Origin: a virus
Taxonomy: Duplodnaviria > Heunggongvirae > Uroviricota > Caudoviricetes
DNA: 38,285 nucleotides
Strand: one strand, 5' to 3'
Virus record (IMG/VR): IMGVR_UViG_2645727978_000010
The notes under the pieces: model-generated
What the model was told of the DNA's origin: nothing
Database searches by the model: none
What the model saw: only the letters and a program-made list of their open reading frames with translations
In this document: piece after piece, positions 7,409 to 36,921 of the stretch
Numbering within the stretch: position 1 is the first letter of the stretch
Layout of the letters: every line of letters starts with the position of its first letter
Program-made: the position numbers and the translations under genes

Positions 7409-8221
7409 ATGGCTTCAAACTGGATAAAGCTCGAGGTTATTACGCCGGATAAGCCGGAAATATTCAGGCTTGCTGAGATTCTGAATATTGATCCAGATGC
7501 CGCATTAGGGAAGGTTATTCGCTTCTGGGCATGGGCGGATCAACAAATGATAGACGGTAATGCAGATTGTAACGCTCGCGGCGTTACAAAAAGTGCAATA
7601 GATCGCATCACTTTTATGGCTGGTTTTGCTGATGCGTTAATTCAGGTTGGATGGCTGGTCGAAAATGACGTTGGGCTTTCTCTACCTAACTTTGAACGTC
7701 ATAACGGAAAAAGCTCTAAAAAACGGGCGGTTACAAACGAGCGAGTTACAAAAATACGCGAACTGAAACGAAAAGGTAACGCTGCCAGCGTTACACAAAC
7801 GGATCAAAAAGCGTTACCAGAGGAAGAGGAAGAGGAAGAGGAAGAGGAAGAGGAAGAGGAAGATCTAAATACTGATCTCCCCCTAAATCCCCCTCGCCAA
7901 AAACGAGCGTCTAAAAAATTCGAGCCGGAGGCTATTGAGCTGCCTGATTGGTTGCCGGAAACACTCTGGCATGAGTGGGTCCGGTTCAGACAGGCATTGC
8001 GAAAACCGATTCGAACGGAGCAGGGCGCTAACGGGGCGATACGGGAACTGGAAAAATTCCGTCAGCAGGGTTTTACACCTGAGCAGGTGATTCGACACAG
8101 CATCGCCAATGAATACCAGGGCTTGTTCGCACCGAAAGGTGTTCGGCCTGAGACGTTGCTCCGACAGGTTAACACCGTCTCGTTGCCGGACAGTGCGATC
8201 CCGCCAGGCTTCAGGGGGTAA
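7409..8221 (+). CDS. YdaU-like phage replication protein (270 aa) with internal poly-Glu tract
   Basis: Track ORF; AAGGTG RBS; immediately upstream of DnaC-like loader (O/P-like arrangement); contains iteron-like palindromes and a 14-Glu run. Confidence 0.6.
   Translation: MASNWIKLEVITPDKPEIFRLAEILNIDPDAALGKVIRFWAWADQQMIDGNADCNARGVTKSAIDRITFMAGFADALIQVGWLVENDVGLSLPNFERHNGKSSKKRAVTNERVTKIRELKRKGNAASVTQTDQKALPEEEEEEEEEEEEEEDLNTDLPLNPPRQKRASKKFEPEAIELPDWLPETLWHEWVRFRQALRKPIRTEQGANGAIRELEKFRQQGFTPEQVIRHSIANEYQGLFAPKGVRPETLLRQVNTVSLPDSAIPPGFRG
7568..7588. repeat. Iteron-like palindrome TGTAACGC-TCGCG-GCGTTACA (copy 2, inside ydaU-like CDS)
   Basis: Perfect 8-bp arms sharing the GTAACGC core with copy 1. 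Confidence 0.6.
7730..7751. repeat. Direct repeat of GTTACAA half-sites (7730-7736 and 7745-7751)
   Basis: Two copies of GTTACAAA 15 bp apart, same core as the palindromes. Confidence 0.45.
7776..7794. repeat. Iteron-like palindrome GTAACGCTG-C-CAGCGTTAC (copy 3, inside ydaU-like CDS)
   Basis: Perfect 9-bp arms; an extra AGCGTTAC half-site follows at 7810-7817. Confidence 0.6.
7820..7861 (+). repeat. Hexanucleotide tandem repeat (GAGGAA)x7 encoding 14 consecutive Glu
   Basis: Seven perfect GAGGAA units, in frame within ydaU-like CDS. Confidence 0.9.
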
Positions 8222-10881: not shown

Positions 10882-11460
10882 ATGAGAGACATTGATGTAA
10901 GAAAGGCTGTGCATGCCAAGATTTTGAGAGATCATCATAAAGATCCTGACACCCTAATCATTGATGAGTTTACGATGAATCTGGGGGCTAGCAGAGCTGA
11001 TATAGCAGTGATCAATGGGCTTATACATGGTTATGAGTTGAAGAGCAAAAGTGATAACTTGCTCAGATTACCAGCGCAGGTGCAACATTACTCATCAGTG
11101 ATGGATAAAGTAACGTTGGTTGTCTCTGATTGCCATCTTTATGATGCTTTAAGCATAGTTCCATCATGGTGGGGGATAAAGCAAGTTACGCAAGGTGCAC
11201 GGCAAGGTATCCATTTAAAAACAATTCGAACTAGCAAGTTGAATCCACAAGTGGACAAACTTTCCTTAACAATGCTTCTTTGGAAAGATGAATTGCTTTC
11301 CCTATTAAGTGATGTAGGGGAGCTACAGAATTTGAAAAATAAACCTAAACGCGTCTTATGGTCAAAACTCGCCAATAGTATGGATGTTGGCGAGCTTCGT
11401 GAAGCTGTTCGAGTTAAACTTAAAGCCCGTAAAGAGTGGCGAGTTGCTCAACAACCTTAG
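10882..11460 (+). CDS. Predicted PD-(D/E)xK nuclease-fold protein (192 aa); sce7726-like by recollection
   Basis: Track ORF with ATG start; AT-rich; motif IIDEF...RADIAVINGLIHGYELKSK fits the D...D-x12-ExK restriction-endonuclease-like signature; family assignment not verified. Confidence 0.6.
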   Translation: MRDIDVRKAVHAKILRDHHKDPDTLIIDEFTMNLGASRADIAVINGLIHGYELKSKSDNLLRLPAQVQHYSSVMDKVTLVVSDCHLYDALSIVPSWWGIKQVTQGARQGIHLKTIRTSKLNPQVDKLSLTMLLWKDELLSLLSDVGELQNLKNKPKRVLWSKLANSMDVGELREAVRVKLKARKEWRVAQQP

Positions 11461-12517
11461 TTATGTGATGGTTTTGCCCAATCCTACGCCATACCTCTGG
11501 GCTACCAAATTTATAGTTACCAGAGGGATTGGCTTTGTAGGCTTGATACTCGTTTGCATAATATTCTATGTCTCTATCTCCCGCACAGAATGTAGGCCCT
11601 GAATATTCTCGATGAGCAAGAATATCCTCACTATGTTTACCATATTGTTCATAACCAAAGCGATTAGCTACTCTTCCTCGAAATACCCAAAAGTCATTAT
11701 CTCCAGAGTATCTGACGCTGGCAGATACGCTAGGGAATCGCGTCGAAAGCCTATTAAAGTCGGGGTGCTGTACTCCATAATCACTATAAATCACATTTCT
11801 GGCAAGTTCTTTTCTATTCATTAAACTCTGCCATAAAATCCACTCGATTCGAGGTTGAGAATATAGACCAACAGAAATATCACTGAGATCTGTAGGAAAT
11901 GAACCCCCAGAAAGAATCACTTTTCTGTATTCATTGAGGTGCGCCAGATTGTTTATCAATCCCATTGCCAAAGTATATAGTTCGCCGGAATTAAGTTTAT
12001 CCTCGGTTAACTCATCTCTTAAGTCAATAATTATATCAATATTTGATAAAGGAATTCCCAGATGATTAATGTAATGCGTTATTAATTGTGGGTTAACCAG
12101 ATCTAACGTGGTTAATCTCAAGCATATTTCATTCTGCATTAATTCATCAATCGCTCCTTTATAGTTAGATGGGCGAGTTGGTGAACTGACAGGAATAACT
12201 CTTATCCCCATATCTCTAACTTGATTAACCGCATTTATTATAGGGTAATGATCTTCAGGAGAAATAAAATGCTCTTCAATTAATAATCCATCAATATAAA
12301 CACCTTGCATATCTGAGCAAGATTTTGAGACTTTCTTTCCGAACTCTATAAGAGTCTCGTTATAACTCTTTAAGGCAATACCTGAATCAGGGTCAATTGG
12401 CACTGGTTCAATTTCGAGTAATGGCAAAATTTTTGATTTCTTTTCAATGGATAGCTGCGATAAAGCTGATAACTCAGAACGTTTCGCTTTCAGAATAGGA
12501 ATATATGAAATTGTCAT
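11420..12517 (-). CDS. 365-aa protein of unknown function; 'beta protein'/sce7725-like by recollection
   Basis: Track ORF with ATG start and AAGGT RBS (rev-comp of 12518-12535); AT-rich; convergent with the nuclease-fold gene with 41-bp 3' overlap; N-terminus MTISYIPILKAKRSEL recalls that family. Confidence 0.6.
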   Translation of the reverse strand: MTISYIPILKAKRSELSALSQLSIEKKSKILPLLEIEPVPIDPDSGIALKSYNETLIEFGKKVSKSCSDMQGVYIDGLLIEEHFISPEDHYPIINAVNQVRDMGIRVIPVSSPTRPSNYKGAIDELMQNEICLRLTTLDLVNPQLITHYINHLGIPLSNIDIIIDLRDELTEDKLNSGELYTLAMGLINNLAHLNEYRKVILSGGSFPTDLSDISVGLYSQPRIEWILWQSLMNRKELARNVIYSDYGVQHPDFNRLSTRFPSVSASVRYSGDNDFWVFRGRVANRFGYEQYGKHSEDILAHREYSGPTFCAGDRDIEYYANEYQAYKANPSGNYKFGSPEVWRRIGQNHHITKVVEQLATLYGL

Positions 12518-28670: not shown

Positions 28671-29123
28671 ATGGAATTCGAAATTAAAGGCGTGAAATAT
28701 CGCACGGCAAAACTCAGCGTTTTTGACCAGCTGAAAGTGACCCGCAAACTTCTGCCGGTGCTGGCAGGAATGATGTCAGATTTCGGGAGTATTCGCTCCC
28801 GTTTGCCTGCTGACGGCAAAATCGACACCGTGAAATTCGAACAGTTAAAACCGGTGTTTGAAACCATGCTCCCGCGTATCGCTGAGGAACTGTCTTCCCT
28901 GACCGAAGATGACACCGATGCGATTATTCATCCCTGTCTTGCGGTGGTATCGCGGCGTCATATGGACGGATGGGTGCCGGTATTTACCCAGGGCGAACTG
29001 ATGTTTGATGATATTGACTTGCTGGTCATGCTGCAGCTGGTGGCGCGGGTGGTCGCCGATTCGCTGGGAAATTTTTTGCCTACACCCCTTACCAGCACGA
29101 CGCAGAGCCTGCAACAGGGCTGA
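28671..29123 (+). CDS. Tail assembly chaperone (150 aa), short isoform
   Basis: Track ORF; directly upstream of tape measure gene; contains slippery heptamer near its 3' end. Confidence 0.6.
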   Translation: MEFEIKGVKYRTAKLSVFDQLKVTRKLLPVLAGMMSDFGSIRSRLPADGKIDTVKFEQLKPVFETMLPRIAEELSSLTEDDTDAIIHPCLAVVSRRHMDGWVPVFTQGELMFDDIDLLVMLQLVARVVADSLGNFLPTPLTSTTQSLQQG

Positions 29124-29311
29124 CGTTTAACAGCCTGCCGGACGGGCTGTCCTACCTTCTCAATCCGGTTGACGCCGGGTTAATTCCTTATACAGCACTT
29201 AAAGATGGCTCTGTCGATTTGTATGACATTGCTCTCTTGAATGACCATCTGGCGGTAAAAGCGGATAACCAGCGACGCATTGAGAAATGGAGAGAGGATA
29301 ATGAACGCTGA
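28671..29311 (+). CDS. Tail assembly chaperone, predicted -1 frameshift-extended isoform
   Basis: Slippery heptamer G_GGA_AAT at 29066-29072 followed by T-run; -1 frame open for 80 codons from 29072 to TGA 29309-29311, overlapping the tape measure start. Confidence 0.5.
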
Positions 29312-32180: not shown

Positions 32181-33242
32181 ATGTCACAGAACTGGATGAG
32201 ACATTTCGAGCTGCAGCTTGTGGACGGGAACGGTCAGGGAATTGAGCTAAGTGATTTTAAAGTGACCTTTACGATCGACTGGTTCAACATCAGCAGCGCG
32301 TCCCGGGTAGGGACTATCAAAATTTATAACCTCTCGGCAGATACTGTGAACCGAATCACCGGGCGGGAGTTTTCGAAAGTGCGTCTGATTGCGGGTTACG
32401 ACGGTATCGCGCCGGAGGTGTCGGCAAGCGACGTCGGGATCGTGCGGGAGGTTGATGCGGCGGACGTGGGCCAGAGTGATGGCCGCAACTACGGACTGAT
32501 TTTCAGCGGTGAAATTCGCTACTCGGTTACAGGAAAAGACAGTCCGGTTGATTCCTACGTCCTGATTCAGGCAGCAGATACTGATCTGGCTTTTGCCACC
32601 AGTATAACCTCACAGACGCTGGCTGCCGGTTACACGGTCGCTGATGTGAACCGTGCGCTGATGAAAGACTTCGAAGCCAAAGGTGCGACCGAAGGCCTGA
32701 CGCCTGAAATGCCTGCTACTGTATTCCCCCGGGGGCGGGTGCTCTTTGGCATGACGCGGCATCTAATGGATAACGTAGCCGGGCAATGTGGCGCAACATG
32801 GCAATTCGTAGACGGTCAGCGCCAGATGGTGGCGAATAATGAATATGTTCACGAAGCGATTGTGCTCAACAGCGCTACCGGGCTTATTGGCATGCCGCAG
32901 CAGACCATCGGCAACGGCGTAAACGTTCGCGCGCTTATTAATCCGAACATCCGGGTTAATGGGCTCATTCAACTGGATCAGGCTTCCGTATATCGCACCG
33001 CGTTGTCGAACAACGATATCGCTATGGCTGGTGGGCAGATCACCGACCAGAACACGGACGGAAATATTACGCTAAGCGGCACCACATCGCAGCCTGCCAG
33101 CATCGCAACGGATGGCGTTTATATTGTGCGCGGGATTATGTACACTGGCGATACAAGGGGCCAGGCGTGGTACATGGATATGATGTGCGAAGCGCGTGGC
33201 GCGGCGGATCTGTATACGCAATCGGCTTTGCAAAGGGAATGA
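32181..33242 (+). CDS. Hypothetical baseplate protein (353 aa), possibly hub
   Basis: Track ORF; position between tape measure and spike gene. Confidence 0.5.
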   Translation: MSQNWMRHFELQLVDGNGQGIELSDFKVTFTIDWFNISSASRVGTIKIYNLSADTVNRITGREFSKVRLIAGYDGIAPEVSASDVGIVREVDAADVGQSDGRNYGLIFSGEIRYSVTGKDSPVDSYVLIQAADTDLAFATSITSQTLAAGYTVADVNRALMKDFEAKGATEGLTPEMPATVFPRGRVLFGMTRHLMDNVAGQCGATWQFVDGQRQMVANNEYVHEAIVLNSATGLIGMPQQTIGNGVNVRALINPNIRVNGLIQLDQASVYRTALSNNDIAMAGGQITDQNTDGNITLSGTTSQPASIATDGVYIVRGIMYTGDTRGQAWYMDMMCEARGAADLYTQSALQRE

Positions 33243-33245
33243 GCA

Positions 33246-33587
33246 ATGAGGGGTATTATTTTTCTGTTAGCTGTCTTTTCTGCGTGCAGCGCGTGGGCGG
33301 ATGGCTTCACGGTTAAATGCGGTGGCTACACTATGGTTGCAAACCAGGGCGAGTTATCGACAATCAACGGTGAAAGAGTTACCTCTCAAAAAATCACCGA
33401 ACTGGGTACCAATGGTTTGAAAGTAGACATGGGGCTTATGCCTGCCAAAGACGGTAACAACTACGGCTTTGAATACATTCGTCGCCCTGGTACCGAAACG
33501 CGATTCCTGAATGTCCAACTGCTGCAGAACAGCATGGATGCGCCGAAAATCATCGGTTCCTTTCCATGCAAAAAGATTGTTGATTAA
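33246..33587 (+). CDS. Secreted protein of unknown function (113 aa) with N-terminal signal peptide
   Basis: Track ORF; AGGGA RBS; MRGIIFLLAVFSACSAWA/DG looks like a Sec signal with AxA cleavage motif; embedded between baseplate genes. Confidence 0.55.
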   Translation: MRGIIFLLAVFSACSAWADGFTVKCGGYTMVANQGELSTINGERVTSQKITELGTNGLKVDMGLMPAKDGNNYGFEYIRRPGTETRFLNVQLLQNSMDAPKIIGSFPCKKIVD

Positions 33588-33604
33588 TCACTCGTAATTA
33601 TAAT
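33577..33604 (+). promoter_or_regulatory. Candidate promoter (TTGTTG -16 bp- TATAAT) for the small membrane-protein gene
   Basis: -35-like 33577-33582, perfect -10 TATAAT 33599-33604; AT-rich intergenic region. Confidence 0.35.
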
Positions 33605-33640
33605 GTGGTACTTCTACTTTCACGATAAGGAATTTGTCGC

Positions 33641-33880
33641 ATGTTCGGATTTGATAAATTAATAACTCCAAAAATCATCAACGTTCTGTATGGCATCACA
33701 ATGTTACTTCTGGTTGTTGCCGCCATTATAACGTTTGTTAATGGGAAGGCTGCTGGCGCTTTAGTGCTTTTGTTATGTGCTGTATTTTGCCGAATATTCT
33801 TTGAGTGCATCATGGTTTCATTTAAAAACAATGAGTATCTTCGCCGAATAGCTGAAGCGTTAGAAGCAAACAAGCAGTAA
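33641..33880 (+). CDS. Small membrane protein (79 aa, two predicted TM helices)
   Basis: Track ORF; AAGG RBS; hydrophobic segments IINVLYGITMLLLVVAAIITFV and ALVLLLCAVFCRIFFECIMV; AT-rich; own terminator. Confidence 0.55.
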   Translation: MFGFDKLITPKIINVLYGITMLLLVVAAIITFVNGKAAGALVLLLCAVFCRIFFECIMVSFKNNEYLRRIAEALEANKQ

Positions 33881-33939: not shown

Positions 33940-34692
33940 ATGGCAGTATCTGACCAGACCCGCAGCGGCGACCTTGCCGAAACATTCAAATCTGAACGGG
34001 AAACCACAAAGAACCAGATCCGTGTCGCCTTGCCTGGCATTGTTCAGTCATTCGATCCCGACGCGGTGACGGCGGTTGTGCAGCCAGCTATCCGTTCGGT
34101 TGAAAAGGATAACGACGGTAACCGCATTACCAAAAATTACCCGTTGCTGGTGGATGTGCCAGTGGTATTTCCGCGCGGCGGAGGCTGTACGTTGACTTTT
34201 CCGGTTAAAGCCGGGGATGAGTGTCTTGTTGTTTTTGCCGATCGTTGTATTGATTTCTGGTGGCAGAACGGCGGGATACAGGAGCCTGTTGATGACAGAA
34301 TGCATGATTTATCGGATGCGTTTTGTATTGTCGGTCCCCAGTCGCAGGCGAGGAAGATTAGCGGTATTAATACCAGTGCCACACAGTTGCGTAGTGACGA
34401 CGGCAGCACCTATTTTGAGCTTAATCCTGATACCAGGAAAATTAAAATTGTCGCTCCGGGTGGTCTTGATGTGGTTGCCCCTCTGGCTGATTTTTCTGAG
34501 AAAGTAACCATTCATGGCCTGTTAACCTGGATGGGTGGCATGGTGGGGTCTGTGGTTTCTGGTGTGGCTTCAAAAATCACTGGTGCTGTTGAGTTTTTGG
34601 GTAGCGTGAAGGCTAACGGCAAGCCAATCGATGATACGCACACTCATGGCGGTGTTCAGCGCGGTGGAAGCAATACCGATAGGGTAAACTGA
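33940..34692 (+). CDS. Baseplate assembly/spike protein (gpV-like), 250 aa
   Basis: Track ORF; GGAG RBS; position in baseplate cluster; Gly-rich C-terminal region. Confidence 0.6.
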   Translation: MAVSDQTRSGDLAETFKSERETTKNQIRVALPGIVQSFDPDAVTAVVQPAIRSVEKDNDGNRITKNYPLLVDVPVVFPRGGGCTLTFPVKAGDECLVVFADRCIDFWWQNGGIQEPVDDRMHDLSDAFCIVGPQSQARKISGINTSATQLRSDDGSTYFELNPDTRKIKIVAPGGLDVVAPLADFSEKVTIHGLLTWMGGMVGSVVSGVASKITGAVEFLGSVKANGKPIDDTHTHGGVQRGGSNTDRVN

Positions 34693-35045
34693 TGCGATAC
34701 AGACGTGAAGACGCCGATGGCGATTACACCTTTGGCAGCGGTGATGACACCTGGCTGATTAACTCACCGGAGGCCGTGGCGCAGGCGGTAAAAACGTGAT
34801 TTGAATTGTGGTATGGGCAATGGTTTCTCGACACCACCGAAGGGACCCCGTGGATCCAGTCTGTGCTCGGTAAGCAGAAGCCGGAAACCTACAACCTGGC
34901 GATCCGTAAGCGCATCCTCGAAACGCGGGGCGTTAAATCAATCCTCTCTTTCAATACGACGGTGGATACCACGACCCGACGTGTCATGTTTTCCGCTGAA
35001 ATCGACACTCTCTATGGAATAACGACTGTTAAATCGGAGGCGTAA
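34692..35045 (+). pseudogene. Baseplate protein gene (gpW/gp25 position) interrupted by in-frame TGA at 34797-34799
   Basis: ATG 34692 (overlaps upstream TGA) opens 35 codons, then TGA, then the same frame stays open for 82 codons to TAA 35043-35045; combined ~117 aa fits a single small baseplate gene. Confidence 0.5.
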
Positions 35046-36244
35046 TGGCTCTGAACCTTGATTCTCTCGGTTTATCTGCAAAGGTAACCGCGGAGGGGAT
35101 CAGTGCGCCTGATTATCAGACGATACTCAGCACCCTGATTAGCTATTTTCAGCAGATTTATGGCAGTGATGCCTACCTCGAACCGGATAGTAAAGACGGC
35201 CAGATGGTGGCTCTGATGGCGCTGGCGATTCATGATGCCAATAATACTGCGATAACTGTCTACAACTGTTTTTCACCGGCAACCGGCTATGGGGCCGCAC
35301 TGACCAGTAACGTGAAAATAAATGGTATTTCACGTAAAGGCGCGACGAATTCTACGGTTGATTTGCTTCTTACAGGAACTGCCGGAACAACCATCATTAA
35401 TGGCAGCGTGAAAGACAGTAATAGTGTGATATGGCGTTTGCCTGCTTCAGTGGTGGTCGGCGTGGATGGTACAGTGATGGCGACCGCAACATGTTCCGTC
35501 AGTGGTGCAGTGGCGGCGCTGGCTGGAACTATCACTGAAATTAATACGCCAACCCGTGGCTGGGTTTCGGTAACTAATCCTGCTGCGGCTACTGTTGGCT
35601 CTCCGGCAGAAACTGATGCGGAGTTACGTATCCGCCAGTCGCAAAGTGTTGCGTTGCCATCAATAACCCCATTTGAAGCACTGGATGGTGCTGTTTCTAA
35701 TGTTACCGGTGTAACCCGCCACAAACTCTATGAAAACGATACTGGTTCGGAGGACGGTAACGGGTTACCGCCACACTCTGTTGCTGTAATTGTGGATGGC
35801 GGTGATGTGATGGATATTGCTCAGGCTATCAGAGGGAATAAAGGCCAGGGGACAGCCACTCACGGTACAACATCCGTTACGGTTCCGGATAAATACGGCA
35901 ATCCCCATGTAATCAAATTCTCGCGTTCCAGTGATGTGCCTGTTTATGCCCGGATTAAATTAAAAGTTTTTACGGGTTATACCTCACAGATAGGGCAGCA
36001 GATCCAGCAGGCTATTTCCGACTATATCAATAGTCTGATGATTGGTGATTCGGTCCTTTTAAGTCGCATTTACTCACCGGCGAATCTTGGCGTGGTGAGT
36101 GGCGGGAATGCACGCTATTACGATATTCAGGAACTGACGATTGGGAAATCTCCGGGGGCTTTGTCGTCATCAAACATTGATATCAGATACAACGAATCTG
36201 CGTCCTGTACCCCGGAAAATATCGTTATAACGGTGGAGTCATGA
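35045..36244 (+). CDS. Baseplate J-like protein (399 aa)
   Basis: Track ORF; ATG overlaps upstream TAA; size and position. Confidence 0.6.
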   Translation: MALNLDSLGLSAKVTAEGISAPDYQTILSTLISYFQQIYGSDAYLEPDSKDGQMVALMALAIHDANNTAITVYNCFSPATGYGAALTSNVKINGISRKGATNSTVDLLLTGTAGTTIINGSVKDSNSVIWRLPASVVVGVDGTVMATATCSVSGAVAALAGTITEINTPTRGWVSVTNPAAATVGSPAETDAELRIRQSQSVALPSITPFEALDGAVSNVTGVTRHKLYENDTGSEDGNGLPPHSVAVIVDGGDVMDIAQAIRGNKGQGTATHGTTSVTVPDKYGNPHVIKFSRSSDVPVYARIKLKVFTGYTSQIGQQIQQAISDYINSLMIGDSVLLSRIYSPANLGVVSGGNARYYDIQELTIGKSPGALSSSNIDIRYNESASCTPENIVITVES

Positions 36245-36921
36245 GCAAATACACCGAACTAATCACGAACTACCACGCCACCAAACCTAAATTTCTTGCA
36301 CATGTTGATCTGATGACCCGGCCGCTTATTGATGTTGCGGCGGCCACCAGAGGGCTGATTACTGCATTTGATATTGACTCTGCGGTTGGTGTGCAACTTG
36401 ACATTCTGGGATTGTGGATCGGACGTAGCCGTGTTGTCAGCCAGCCTATCTCAGGTGTTTATTTCAGCTGGGATACCGACGGGCTTGGATATGATCAGGG
36501 TGTATGGCAGGGACCATACGATCCTGATTCCGGATACATGTACCTCAGCGATGAAACTTATCGTGTCATCCTTAAAGCGAAGATTGCGATTAATAACTGG
36601 GACGGACGGAATGATTCGCTTCCGGCAATTCTTGACGCGGCAACAGCAGGATCCGGGCTGCGAATGCAGATAGTCGATAACCAGGACATGACGATATCGG
36701 TCTGGGTCTTTCCTGATACTGATATTTCAGATGTATCGCGTGAGTTAATTGCGGCAATTAAACAGGGGTATCTCACAGTAAAAGCCGCCGGGGTATGGGC
36801 GGGGGGCATTGAAACTCCTTCGGTGGAAACCCCATCGGAAGGCTCAAAATTTTTTGGTTTTGATATGGATAACGAATTCATCAGTGGTTTTGATGTAGGA
36901 GCATGGGGAGTATTACTCTGA
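36241..36921 (+). CDS. Tail/baseplate protein I-like (226 aa)
   Basis: Track ORF; ATGA overlap with J-like gene; precedes tail fibre gene. Confidence 0.55.

What the first reader, a model, noticed from the sequence alone, without database searches (positions are those of the whole stretch)
34692..35045. In-frame TGA splits a small baseplate gene (35 codons, TGA, 82 codons)
The frame opened by ATG 34692 runs straight through TGA 34797-34799 to TAA 35043-35045, and the combined ~117 aa fits one gene in the gpW/gp25 slot. This could be an inactivating nonsense mutation (prophage decay, consistent with the IS66 insertion nearby), a sequencing error, or stop-codon recoding.
Basis: seen in the sequence. 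Interest (0 to 1): 0.55.

Follow-up and report, generated by a model that had tools for sequence, protein, structure and literature searches.

The report
Nonsense mutation in prophage sheath-initiator gene
A single C-to-T change has turned a conserved arginine codon into a stop codon in a small, essential tail-baseplate gene of an E. coli prophage, making an ordinary, already-annotated pseudogene rather than a case of stop-codon recoding.

Summary
The frame from ATG 34692 to TAA 35043-35045 is broken only by TGA 34797-34799, which is codon 36. The gene is the gp25-like "sheath initiator" of a contractile-tail prophage and sits between the spike gene and the baseplate-J gene.

Intact orthologs have CGA or CGC (Arg) at this codon. 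The closest intact allele (WP_001270633.1) differs from the window by this one nucleotide. In 12 aligned orthologs the column holds Arg in 11 and Lys in 1.

Among 5,426 complete E. coli genomes, 2 carry this TGA allele and 234 carry CGA in the two contexts queried. RefSeq annotation already flags both TGA loci as pseudogenes with an internal stop.

The T is present in at least ten independent assemblies, so it is not a sequencing error. I found no SECIS-like hairpin, no Rfam match, no suppressor tRNA in the window and no conservation of the stop, so recoding is very unlikely.

All 53 other prophage genes mapped from the strain 12A annotation are intact. An IS66-family element also interrupts the tail-fibre assembly gene. 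The best reading is a recent, inherited null mutation (R36*) in a prophage that is starting to decay. This is ordinary and of low interest.

The parts
34692..35045 (+). Sheath-initiator (gp25-like baseplate) gene, now a pseudogene of 117 codon positions plus TAA
   Evidence: RefSeq marks the 100% identical loci as pseudogenes with an internal stop.
34797..34799 (+). Premature TGA at codon 36, where orthologs have CGA or CGC (Arg). The change is C to T at 34797.
   Evidence: The next base is T (TGAT).
34692..34796 (+). The 35 codons still translated. They hold the conserved D7, D11 and Q31 of the family.
   Evidence: This exact 35-aa product is called in 42 blocks of the assembly collection.
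34800..35042 (+). 81 codons downstream of the stop that are no longer translated. They include the GEWFLD-type motif and the C-terminal core. An in-frame TTG at 34806 has no Shine-Dalgarno sequence.
   Evidence: The 79-aa restart product is never called in the collection.
33940..34692 (+). Upstream membrane-puncturing spike gene (PF18352 N-domain plus Apex motif). Its TGA overlaps the ATG of the pseudogene.
35045..36244 (+). Downstream baseplate J/gp47-like wedge gene, intact, with its own GGAGG at 35034-35038
36241..36921 (+). DUF2612 baseplate wedge gene, intact
37763..37857 (+). Tail-fibre assembly gene cut after about 32 codons by the IS66-family element. This is a second lesion in the same tail module.
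37858..38285 (-). End of an IS66-family insertion sequence (terminal GTAAGCG, transposase C-terminus). The contig ends inside it.

Best explanation
The TGA is a recent C-to-T nonsense mutation (CGA to TGA, R36*) in the gene for the sheath initiator of a contractile-tail prophage. This is the small gp25/gpW-type baseplate protein. Translation stops after 35 of 117 residues. The missing part includes the conserved TRxxLxxGEWFLD motif and the whole C-terminal core. In solved relatives that core clasps the baseplate wedge and provides the beta-strand 'handshake' on which the first sheath ring polymerises. By inference, the prophage can no longer build functional tails unaided, unless an intact copy in a co-resident related prophage supplies the protein. 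The allele is inherited vertically within one E. coli lineage that includes O111:H2 strain 12A. It sits in a prophage that is otherwise intact, apart from an IS66-family insertion in the tail-fibre assembly gene, so this is early-stage prophage decay. Shown here: the mutation, its ancestral state, its rarity, its presence in many assemblies, and the family assignment. Inferred: loss of function and the tail-less phenotype.
For: The stop is at codon 36. Orthologs have CGA (ES1, OkiPb01696, 12089, EH2252) or CGC (AB66) there. The window allele differs from the gene for WP_001270633.1 by that single base. Exact-word counts in 5,426 complete genomes give 2 for the TGA allele, 215 for CGA followed by TTC and 19 for CGA followed by TTT. 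RefSeq annotates both TGA loci as pseudogenes with an internal stop. The same allele occurs in NCTC long-read assemblies, in the window's own draft contig JHRE01000142.1 and in Logan assemblies of sequencing runs. The family assignment rests on PHROG 120 'baseplate wedge subunit' at 4e-37 and on solved sheath initiators: Pam3 gp21 at 5.5e-12, XM1 gp15 and phi92 gp139. Ten phage genomes have a single gene in the same spike-to-J position. The aligned column is Arg in 11 of 12 orthologs and Lys in 1. The role of sheath initiators is described in PMC9942802 and PMC13450770. In the window, 53 of 54 mapped prophage genes are intact and only this one has an internal stop. IS66 lies in the tail-fibre assembly gene.
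Against: No experiment shows that the lysogen fails to make tails. UGA is the leakiest stop codon in E. coli (general knowledge), so a trace of full-length protein with Trp at position 36 cannot be excluded. A restart at the in-frame TTG 34806 cannot be excluded either. The rest of the gene carries no further damage, which fits a very recent event but would also fit continued use. TGA at the same codon also occurs on a second haplotype (L027), which is slightly unexpected for a random lesion.
Confidence: 0.93

Rival explanations
1. Sequencing or assembly error: the true base at 34797 is C and the gene is intact.
For: It is a single-base difference from an intact allele, and the window is a draft contig.
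Against: The same T is found in two complete RefSeq genomes, in several NCTC long-read assemblies, and in independent Logan assemblies of sequencing runs. These assemblies differ from one another elsewhere: a synonymous G219A, IS66 present or absent, and the invertible segment in either orientation.
Confidence: 0.01
2. Programmed recoding: the UGA is decoded as selenocysteine, or read through (as Trp), to give a full-length protein.
For: The frame stays open and undamaged after the stop. UGA is the most readthrough-prone stop codon in E. coli (general knowledge). TGA at the same codon occurs on a second haplotype.
Against: The stop is not conserved: 234 complete genomes have CGA against 2 with TGA. 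Homologs have Arg or Lys here, not Cys or Trp. The 64 nt downstream fold less stably than shuffled sequence (z=+1.7; 194 of 200 shuffles fold at least as well). There is no Rfam match and no tRNA gene in the window. The base after the stop is U, which to my recollection of published E. coli stop-context work (not checked here) is the strongest termination context for UGA.
Confidence: 0.02
3. A functional split gene: the 35-aa N-terminal peptide and a 79-aa C-terminal protein restarted at TTG 34806 are both made and together, or the C-terminal piece alone, replace the intact protein.
For: An in-frame TTG lies 6 nt after the stop. Termination-reinitiation at nearby start codons is known in bacteria (general knowledge).
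Against: There is no Shine-Dalgarno sequence upstream of the TTG. Every ortholog examined is one gene. The 79-aa product is not called in any assembly of the collection. The restart product would lack conserved D7, D11, Q31 and the Arg of the motif. The split is one mutation old, so no adaptation to a two-piece form has occurred.
Confidence: 0.03

Closest known systems
Sheath initiator proteins of contractile injection systems with solved structures: Pam3 gp21 (7yfz), XM1 gp15 (7kh1), phi92 gp139. T4 gp25, P2 gpW and T6SS TssE are the classical counterparts (from general knowledge, not compared here).
   Same: Size of about 117 aa, position between the spike gene and the baseplate-J gene, and significant sequence similarity over nearly the full length, including the TRxxLxxGEWFLD-type motif.
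   Different: The window copy is interrupted at codon 36 by TGA, so it cannot encode the wedge-clasping and sheath-handshake parts. My Pfam and NCBIfam scans of the repaired protein found nothing. A precomputed PF10934 Sheath_initiator hit is on record for a C-terminal fragment of the same gene.
Prophage pseudogenes created by point nonsense mutations and IS insertions, as in cryptic and defective prophages of E. coli
   Same: A one-step CGA-to-TGA change in an essential virion gene, restricted to a lineage, accompanied by an IS insertion in another tail gene, and already annotated as a pseudogene with an internal stop.
   Different: Decay is at a very early stage. All other mapped prophage genes are intact, and the tail-fibre segment next to the annotated pinE gene is seen in both orientations among near-identical prophages.
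Bacterial selenoprotein genes (in-frame UGA plus a downstream SECIS hairpin)
   Same: Only the presence of an in-frame UGA in an otherwise open frame.
   Different: There is no SECIS-like hairpin, homologs have Arg or Lys rather than Cys, and the UGA is not conserved.

Membership tests
Sheath initiator / gp25-like baseplate protein | Significant sequence similarity to experimentally placed sheath initiators | tested here: met
   Pam3 gp21 at E=5.5e-12, gp87 (9zd7) at 2e-07, XM1 gp15 at 3.2e-07 and phi92 gp139 at 8e-05. PHROG 120 at 4e-37. These used the protein repaired with R at codon 36.
Sheath initiator / gp25-like baseplate protein | Gene position in the baseplate module, directly after the spike gene and before the baseplate J/gp47-like gene | tested here: met
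   Window genes at 33940-34692 (spike) and 35045-36244 (Baseplate_J). The order is the same in 10 phage genomes.
Sheath initiator / gp25-like baseplate protein | Match to the curated family models (Pfam PF10934 Sheath_initiator or PF04965; NCBIfam) | tested here: inconclusive
   No hit in my hmmscan runs against Pfam or NCBIfam. A precomputed PF10934 hit exists for an 84-aa C-terminal fragment of the same gene in L025. RefSeq names some near-identical orthologs 'contractile injection system sheath initiator'.
Sheath initiator / gp25-like baseplate protein | gp25-type fold with a C-terminal strand that pairs with the first sheath ring | not tested
   No structure was predicted. The fold is inferred from sequence alignment to Pam3 gp21 residues 22-123 and from PMC9942802.
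Sheath initiator / gp25-like baseplate protein | An intact reading frame able to produce the protein | tested here: not met
   TGA at codon 36. The window therefore holds a pseudogene of this family, not a functional member.
Pseudogene by nonsense mutation | Premature stop at a position that is a sense codon in close and distant orthologs | tested here: met
   CGA or CGC in E. coli orthologs. The column holds Arg in 11 of 12 orthologs and Lys in 1.
Pseudogene by nonsense mutation | The stop is a rare derived allele, not a conserved feature | tested here: met
   2 complete genomes with TGA against 234 with CGA in the two queried contexts. There is a one-base difference from the intact allele.
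Pseudogene by nonsense mutation | Loss of the protein's function in vivo | not testable with these tools
   This needs induction and electron microscopy, plaque assays or complementation.
Selenoprotein gene or programmed UGA readthrough | Conserved UGA (aligned with Cys or Sec in homologs) plus a stimulatory RNA structure just downstream | tested here: not met
   Homologs have Arg or Lys. The downstream fold has z=+1.7 against shuffles. No Rfam family matches.

The most novel reading that the evidence does not exclude
The CGA-to-TGA change at codon 36 has arisen, or been transferred, at least twice on prophage haplotypes about 3% apart (the window lineage and L027). This could mean the site is a mutational hotspot. 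It could also mean that knocking out the sheath initiator while keeping the rest of the prophage is favoured by the host, for example to disarm particle production, with leaky UGA or a co-resident prophage providing occasional rescue.
Probability: 0.05. Interest if true: 0.35.

Novelty: already known. Interest (0 to 1): 0.08.

Why it matters
It matters little beyond annotation. The locus should be labelled as a sheath-initiator pseudogene (R36*), not as two small genes or a recoded gene. The prophage should be scored as probably tail-defective when predicting inducible phages in this O111-related lineage. As a marker, the allele identifies a clonal group of strains. The co-resident intact copy in FDAARGOS_1059 illustrates how polylysogeny can mask such defects.

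Tried and rejected
- **Pfam and NCBIfam scans.** Scans of the protein, with X or with R at codon 36, gave no hit. The family was assigned through PHROGs and sequences of solved structures instead.
- **Recoding.** An Rfam scan at E up to 10 gave only a meaningless snoRNA hit at 11 bits. The fold of the 64 nt after the UGA was weaker than shuffled sequence. The tRNA scan of the window found none.
- **Restart product.** Looking up the 79-aa restart product in the assembly collection found nothing on record.
- **TGATTC context.** Searching for it (the L027 haplotype) in complete genomes found no match.
- **Stop-codon context literature.** One search returned only eukaryotic or viral papers, so that point rests on my own recollection.
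- **Dcm hotspot idea.** I considered Dcm-site deamination as the cause. The local sequence AACGCGATT is not CCWGG, so I dropped it.
- **Searches not run.** I did not run the large protein-database searches or a structure prediction. The one-base difference from an intact allele and the phage and PDB alignments had already settled the question.

Full report
**Observation.** The sequence is as described. ATG 34692 opens a frame that runs to TAA 35043-35045 and is interrupted once, by TGA 34797-34799. That gives 35 sense codons, the TGA, 81 sense codons and the terminator. The ATG overlaps the stop of the upstream gene (TGATG) and the TAA overlaps the start of the next gene (TAATG). The next gene has its own GGAGG at 35034-35038.

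**What the gene is.** The neighbours are a membrane-puncturing spike gene (33940-34692; PF18352 N-domain plus Apex motif), a Baseplate_J gene (35045-36244), a DUF2612 wedge gene (36241-36921) and a tail-fibre gene with a Collar domain.

With Arg restored at codon 36, the protein matches PHROG 120 'baseplate wedge subunit' at E=4e-37. It also matches proteins placed by cryo-EM as sheath initiators: Pam3 gp21 (7yfz, 5.5e-12), XM1 gp15 (7kh1, 3.2e-07, aligned from residue 1), phi92 gp139 and others. My Pfam and NCBIfam scans found nothing. A precomputed PF10934 Sheath_initiator hit is on record for a fragment of the same gene, and RefSeq names some near-identical orthologs 'contractile injection system sheath initiator'.

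In Pam3 and phi92 this protein forms a six-fold ring on top of the wedge. It clasps the wedge helical bundle and supplies the strands for the four-stranded 'handshake' with the first sheath ring (PMC9942802 and PMC13450770).

**What the stop replaces.** Aligning the window gene with orthologous E. coli prophage genes shows CGA at codon 36 in strains ES1, OkiPb01696, 12089 and EH2252, and CGC in the about 75%-identical AB66 copy. The gene of strains 12089 and EH2252 (WP_001270633.1) differs from the window at that single nucleotide and nowhere else. The event is therefore one C-to-T transition, CGA to TGA.

Ten phage genomes, from Escherichia phage vB_EcoM-683R1 (97% identity) to Burkholderia, Pantoea, Klebsiella, Vibrio, Iodobacter, Rheinheimera and Staphylococcus phages, each have one uninterrupted gene between the spike and J genes. 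In the alignment of 12 orthologs the column opposite the TGA is Arg in 11 and Lys in 1. It lies inside the conserved TRxxLxxGEWFLD-type motif.

**How common the allele is, and whether it is real.** I used 33-nt queries centred on the site, so that megablast's 28-nt exact word must span it.

| Allele context | Complete E. coli genomes (of 5,426) |
|---|---|
| TGA followed by TTT (window allele) | 2 (O111:H2 strain 12A and FDAARGOS_1059) |
| CGA followed by TTC | 215 |
| CGA followed by TTT | 19 |
| TGA followed by TTC (L027 haplotype) | 0 |

RefSeq already annotates both TGA loci as pseudogenes with an internal stop.

The window is 99.94% identical to the 12A prophage over 37.3 kb. It is the whole contig JHRE01000142.1 of draft assembly GCA_001265335.1.

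The exact 35-aa truncated product is on record in 42 blocks of the assembly collection. These include several NCTC long-read assemblies and Logan assemblies of sequencing runs. Nine of the ten loci shown carry the window's allele, apart from a shared synonymous G219A in one and a local shift in register at the gene's 3' end in another. A sequencing error is therefore excluded. The allele is inherited within a lineage.

**Tests for recoding.**
- The 64 nt following the UGA fold less stably than shuffled controls (z=+1.7; 194 of 200 shuffles fold at least as well).
- No Rfam family matches.
- The window has no tRNA gene, so no phage-borne suppressor.
- The base after the stop is U. To my recollection of published E. 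coli work this is the strongest termination context for UGA. I could not retrieve a citation for it.
- Homologs have a basic residue at the site, not Cys or Trp.
- The in-frame TTG at 34806 has no Shine-Dalgarno sequence, and the 79-aa restart product is never called in the collection. It would also lack conserved D7, D11 and Q31.

**State of the prophage.** In 12A the element lies between yebY and pphA. It has Rac-like early genes (recE, recT, kilR, ralR) and a full set of myovirus-type late genes, and the sheath-initiator gene is the only pseudogene flagged. I mapped those 54 genes onto the window. Only this gene has an internal stop.

The window carries a second lesion. An IS66-family element, with terminal GTAAGCG at 37858 and a transposase C-terminus on the minus strand, cuts the tail-fibre assembly gene after about 32 codons. 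The same insertion is seen with a full-length transposase in an NCTC assembly (L024). This fits early-stage decay.

**Likely consequence (inferred).** A 35-residue product lacks the motif and the whole C-terminal core that binds the wedge and primes the sheath. gp25- and gpW-type proteins are essential baseplate components in T4 and P2 (established knowledge). The prophage should therefore be unable to make functional contractile tails unaided.

Two things could soften this. One is trace UGA readthrough. The other is trans-complementation: FDAARGOS_1059 carries a second, related prophage with an intact and otherwise identical gene (WP_001270633.1) and identical J and DUF2612 proteins. That second prophage has its own IS66 insertion and an annotated frameshift. 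Ending translation 246 nt before the J start might also reduce downstream expression through polarity, but J has its own ribosome-binding site. This last point is inference only.

**An unexpected detail.** One Logan assembly (L027, run SRR15731923) has TGA at the same codon on a different haplotype. That haplotype has six other differences within the gene, including one 5 nt away. The prophage DNA is about 3% diverged and the upstream cargo genes are different. Its nearest intact allele, in strain C25, differs from it at two sites.

This points to an independent C-to-T hit or a conversion patch of less than about 80 nt. The look-up was by exact 35-aa product, so only same-codon events could be seen. 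The gene has just 15 transition-type one-step nonsense sites. A coincidence is therefore not remarkable, and I give the hotspot or selection reading about 5%.

**Verdict.** It is an ordinary nonsense pseudogene that public annotation already records. Interest is low.

Noticed in passing
window 29072-29078 (with genes 28671-29123 and 29147-29311): A likely genuine recoding site elsewhere in the window. The tail assembly chaperone gene contains the canonical -1 slippery heptamer T_TTT_TTG in its zero frame. The -1 frame is open from about 29010 to the stop at 29311, overlapping the tape-measure start. RefSeq annotates the downstream part as a separate 54-aa 'DUF6889' protein with a CTG start. 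This looks like the conserved tail-chaperone programmed frameshift, mis-annotated as two genes.
   Followed up: partly
window 33246-33880; compare L002, L003, L004, L006, L007, L027: The slot between the baseplate hub gene (32181-33242) and the spike gene is a variable cargo site. The window has a 113-aa protein with a signal-peptide-like N-terminus and a 79-aa DUF4282 membrane protein. Related prophages hold unrelated genes there, including a Phd/Doc toxin-antitoxin pair (AB66) and a DUF2335 protein (L027). Neither window cargo protein hit PADLOC.
   Followed up: partly
L027 4001-4354 (Logan SRR15731923): TGA at the same codon 36 on a prophage haplotype about 3% diverged from the window (context TGATTC, different cargo genes). 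Its nearest intact allele is in strain C25, 2 differences away. This is an independent mutation or a very short conversion patch.
   Followed up: partly
window 37250-37275 and 37253-37857: The tail-fibre C-terminal segment is in the opposite orientation to strain 12A. The breakpoint lies at a partly palindromic Pin/Gin-type crossover sequence (CTCGAAAACCTTGGTTTGGGAG), and 12A has pinE next to the segment. Both orientations occur among near-identical prophages, so the invertase appears active in the lineage.
   Followed up: partly
window 37858-38285: The end of an IS66-family element is inserted about 32 codons into the tail-fibre assembly gene, and the contig stops inside the IS. FDAARGOS_1059's second related prophage has a separate IS66 insertion, in the other orientation, in its own tail-fibre assembly gene.
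   Followed up: partly
window 10882-11460 (+) and 11420-12517 (-): Two convergent, overlapping prophage cargo genes match anti-phage defence models. The 365-aa protein matches PD-Lambda-2_C (2.8e-41) and the 192-aa 'sce7726 family' protein matches PADLOC model 'cll' (2.4e-28). This is possibly a partial or variant PD-Lambda-2-like system.
   Followed up: no
window 7819-7836: An in-frame 18-bp expansion of an AGAGGA hexamer repeat relative to strain 12A, inside the 270-aa hypothetical early gene 7409-8221. Apart from three SNPs, it is the only other difference over 37 kb.
   Followed up: no
L003 1693-2046, L002 1693-2046, L006 4193-4546: RefSeq names near-identical intact orthologs of this 117-aa protein inconsistently. 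WP_001270632.1 is a 'thioredoxin domain-containing protein', WP_001270631.1 is a 'contractile injection system sheath initiator' and WP_001270633.1 is a 'hypothetical protein'. The first two differ from each other by one residue. The thioredoxin name looks spurious.
   Followed up: no
L029 (NZ_CP066032.1 2615724-2624756): FDAARGOS_1059 is a polylysogen with two related prophages of this type. The copy at 2.62 Mb has the intact sheath-initiator gene, and the copy at 3.52 Mb has the TGA. This makes trans-complementation or inter-prophage gene conversion possible.
   Followed up: partly
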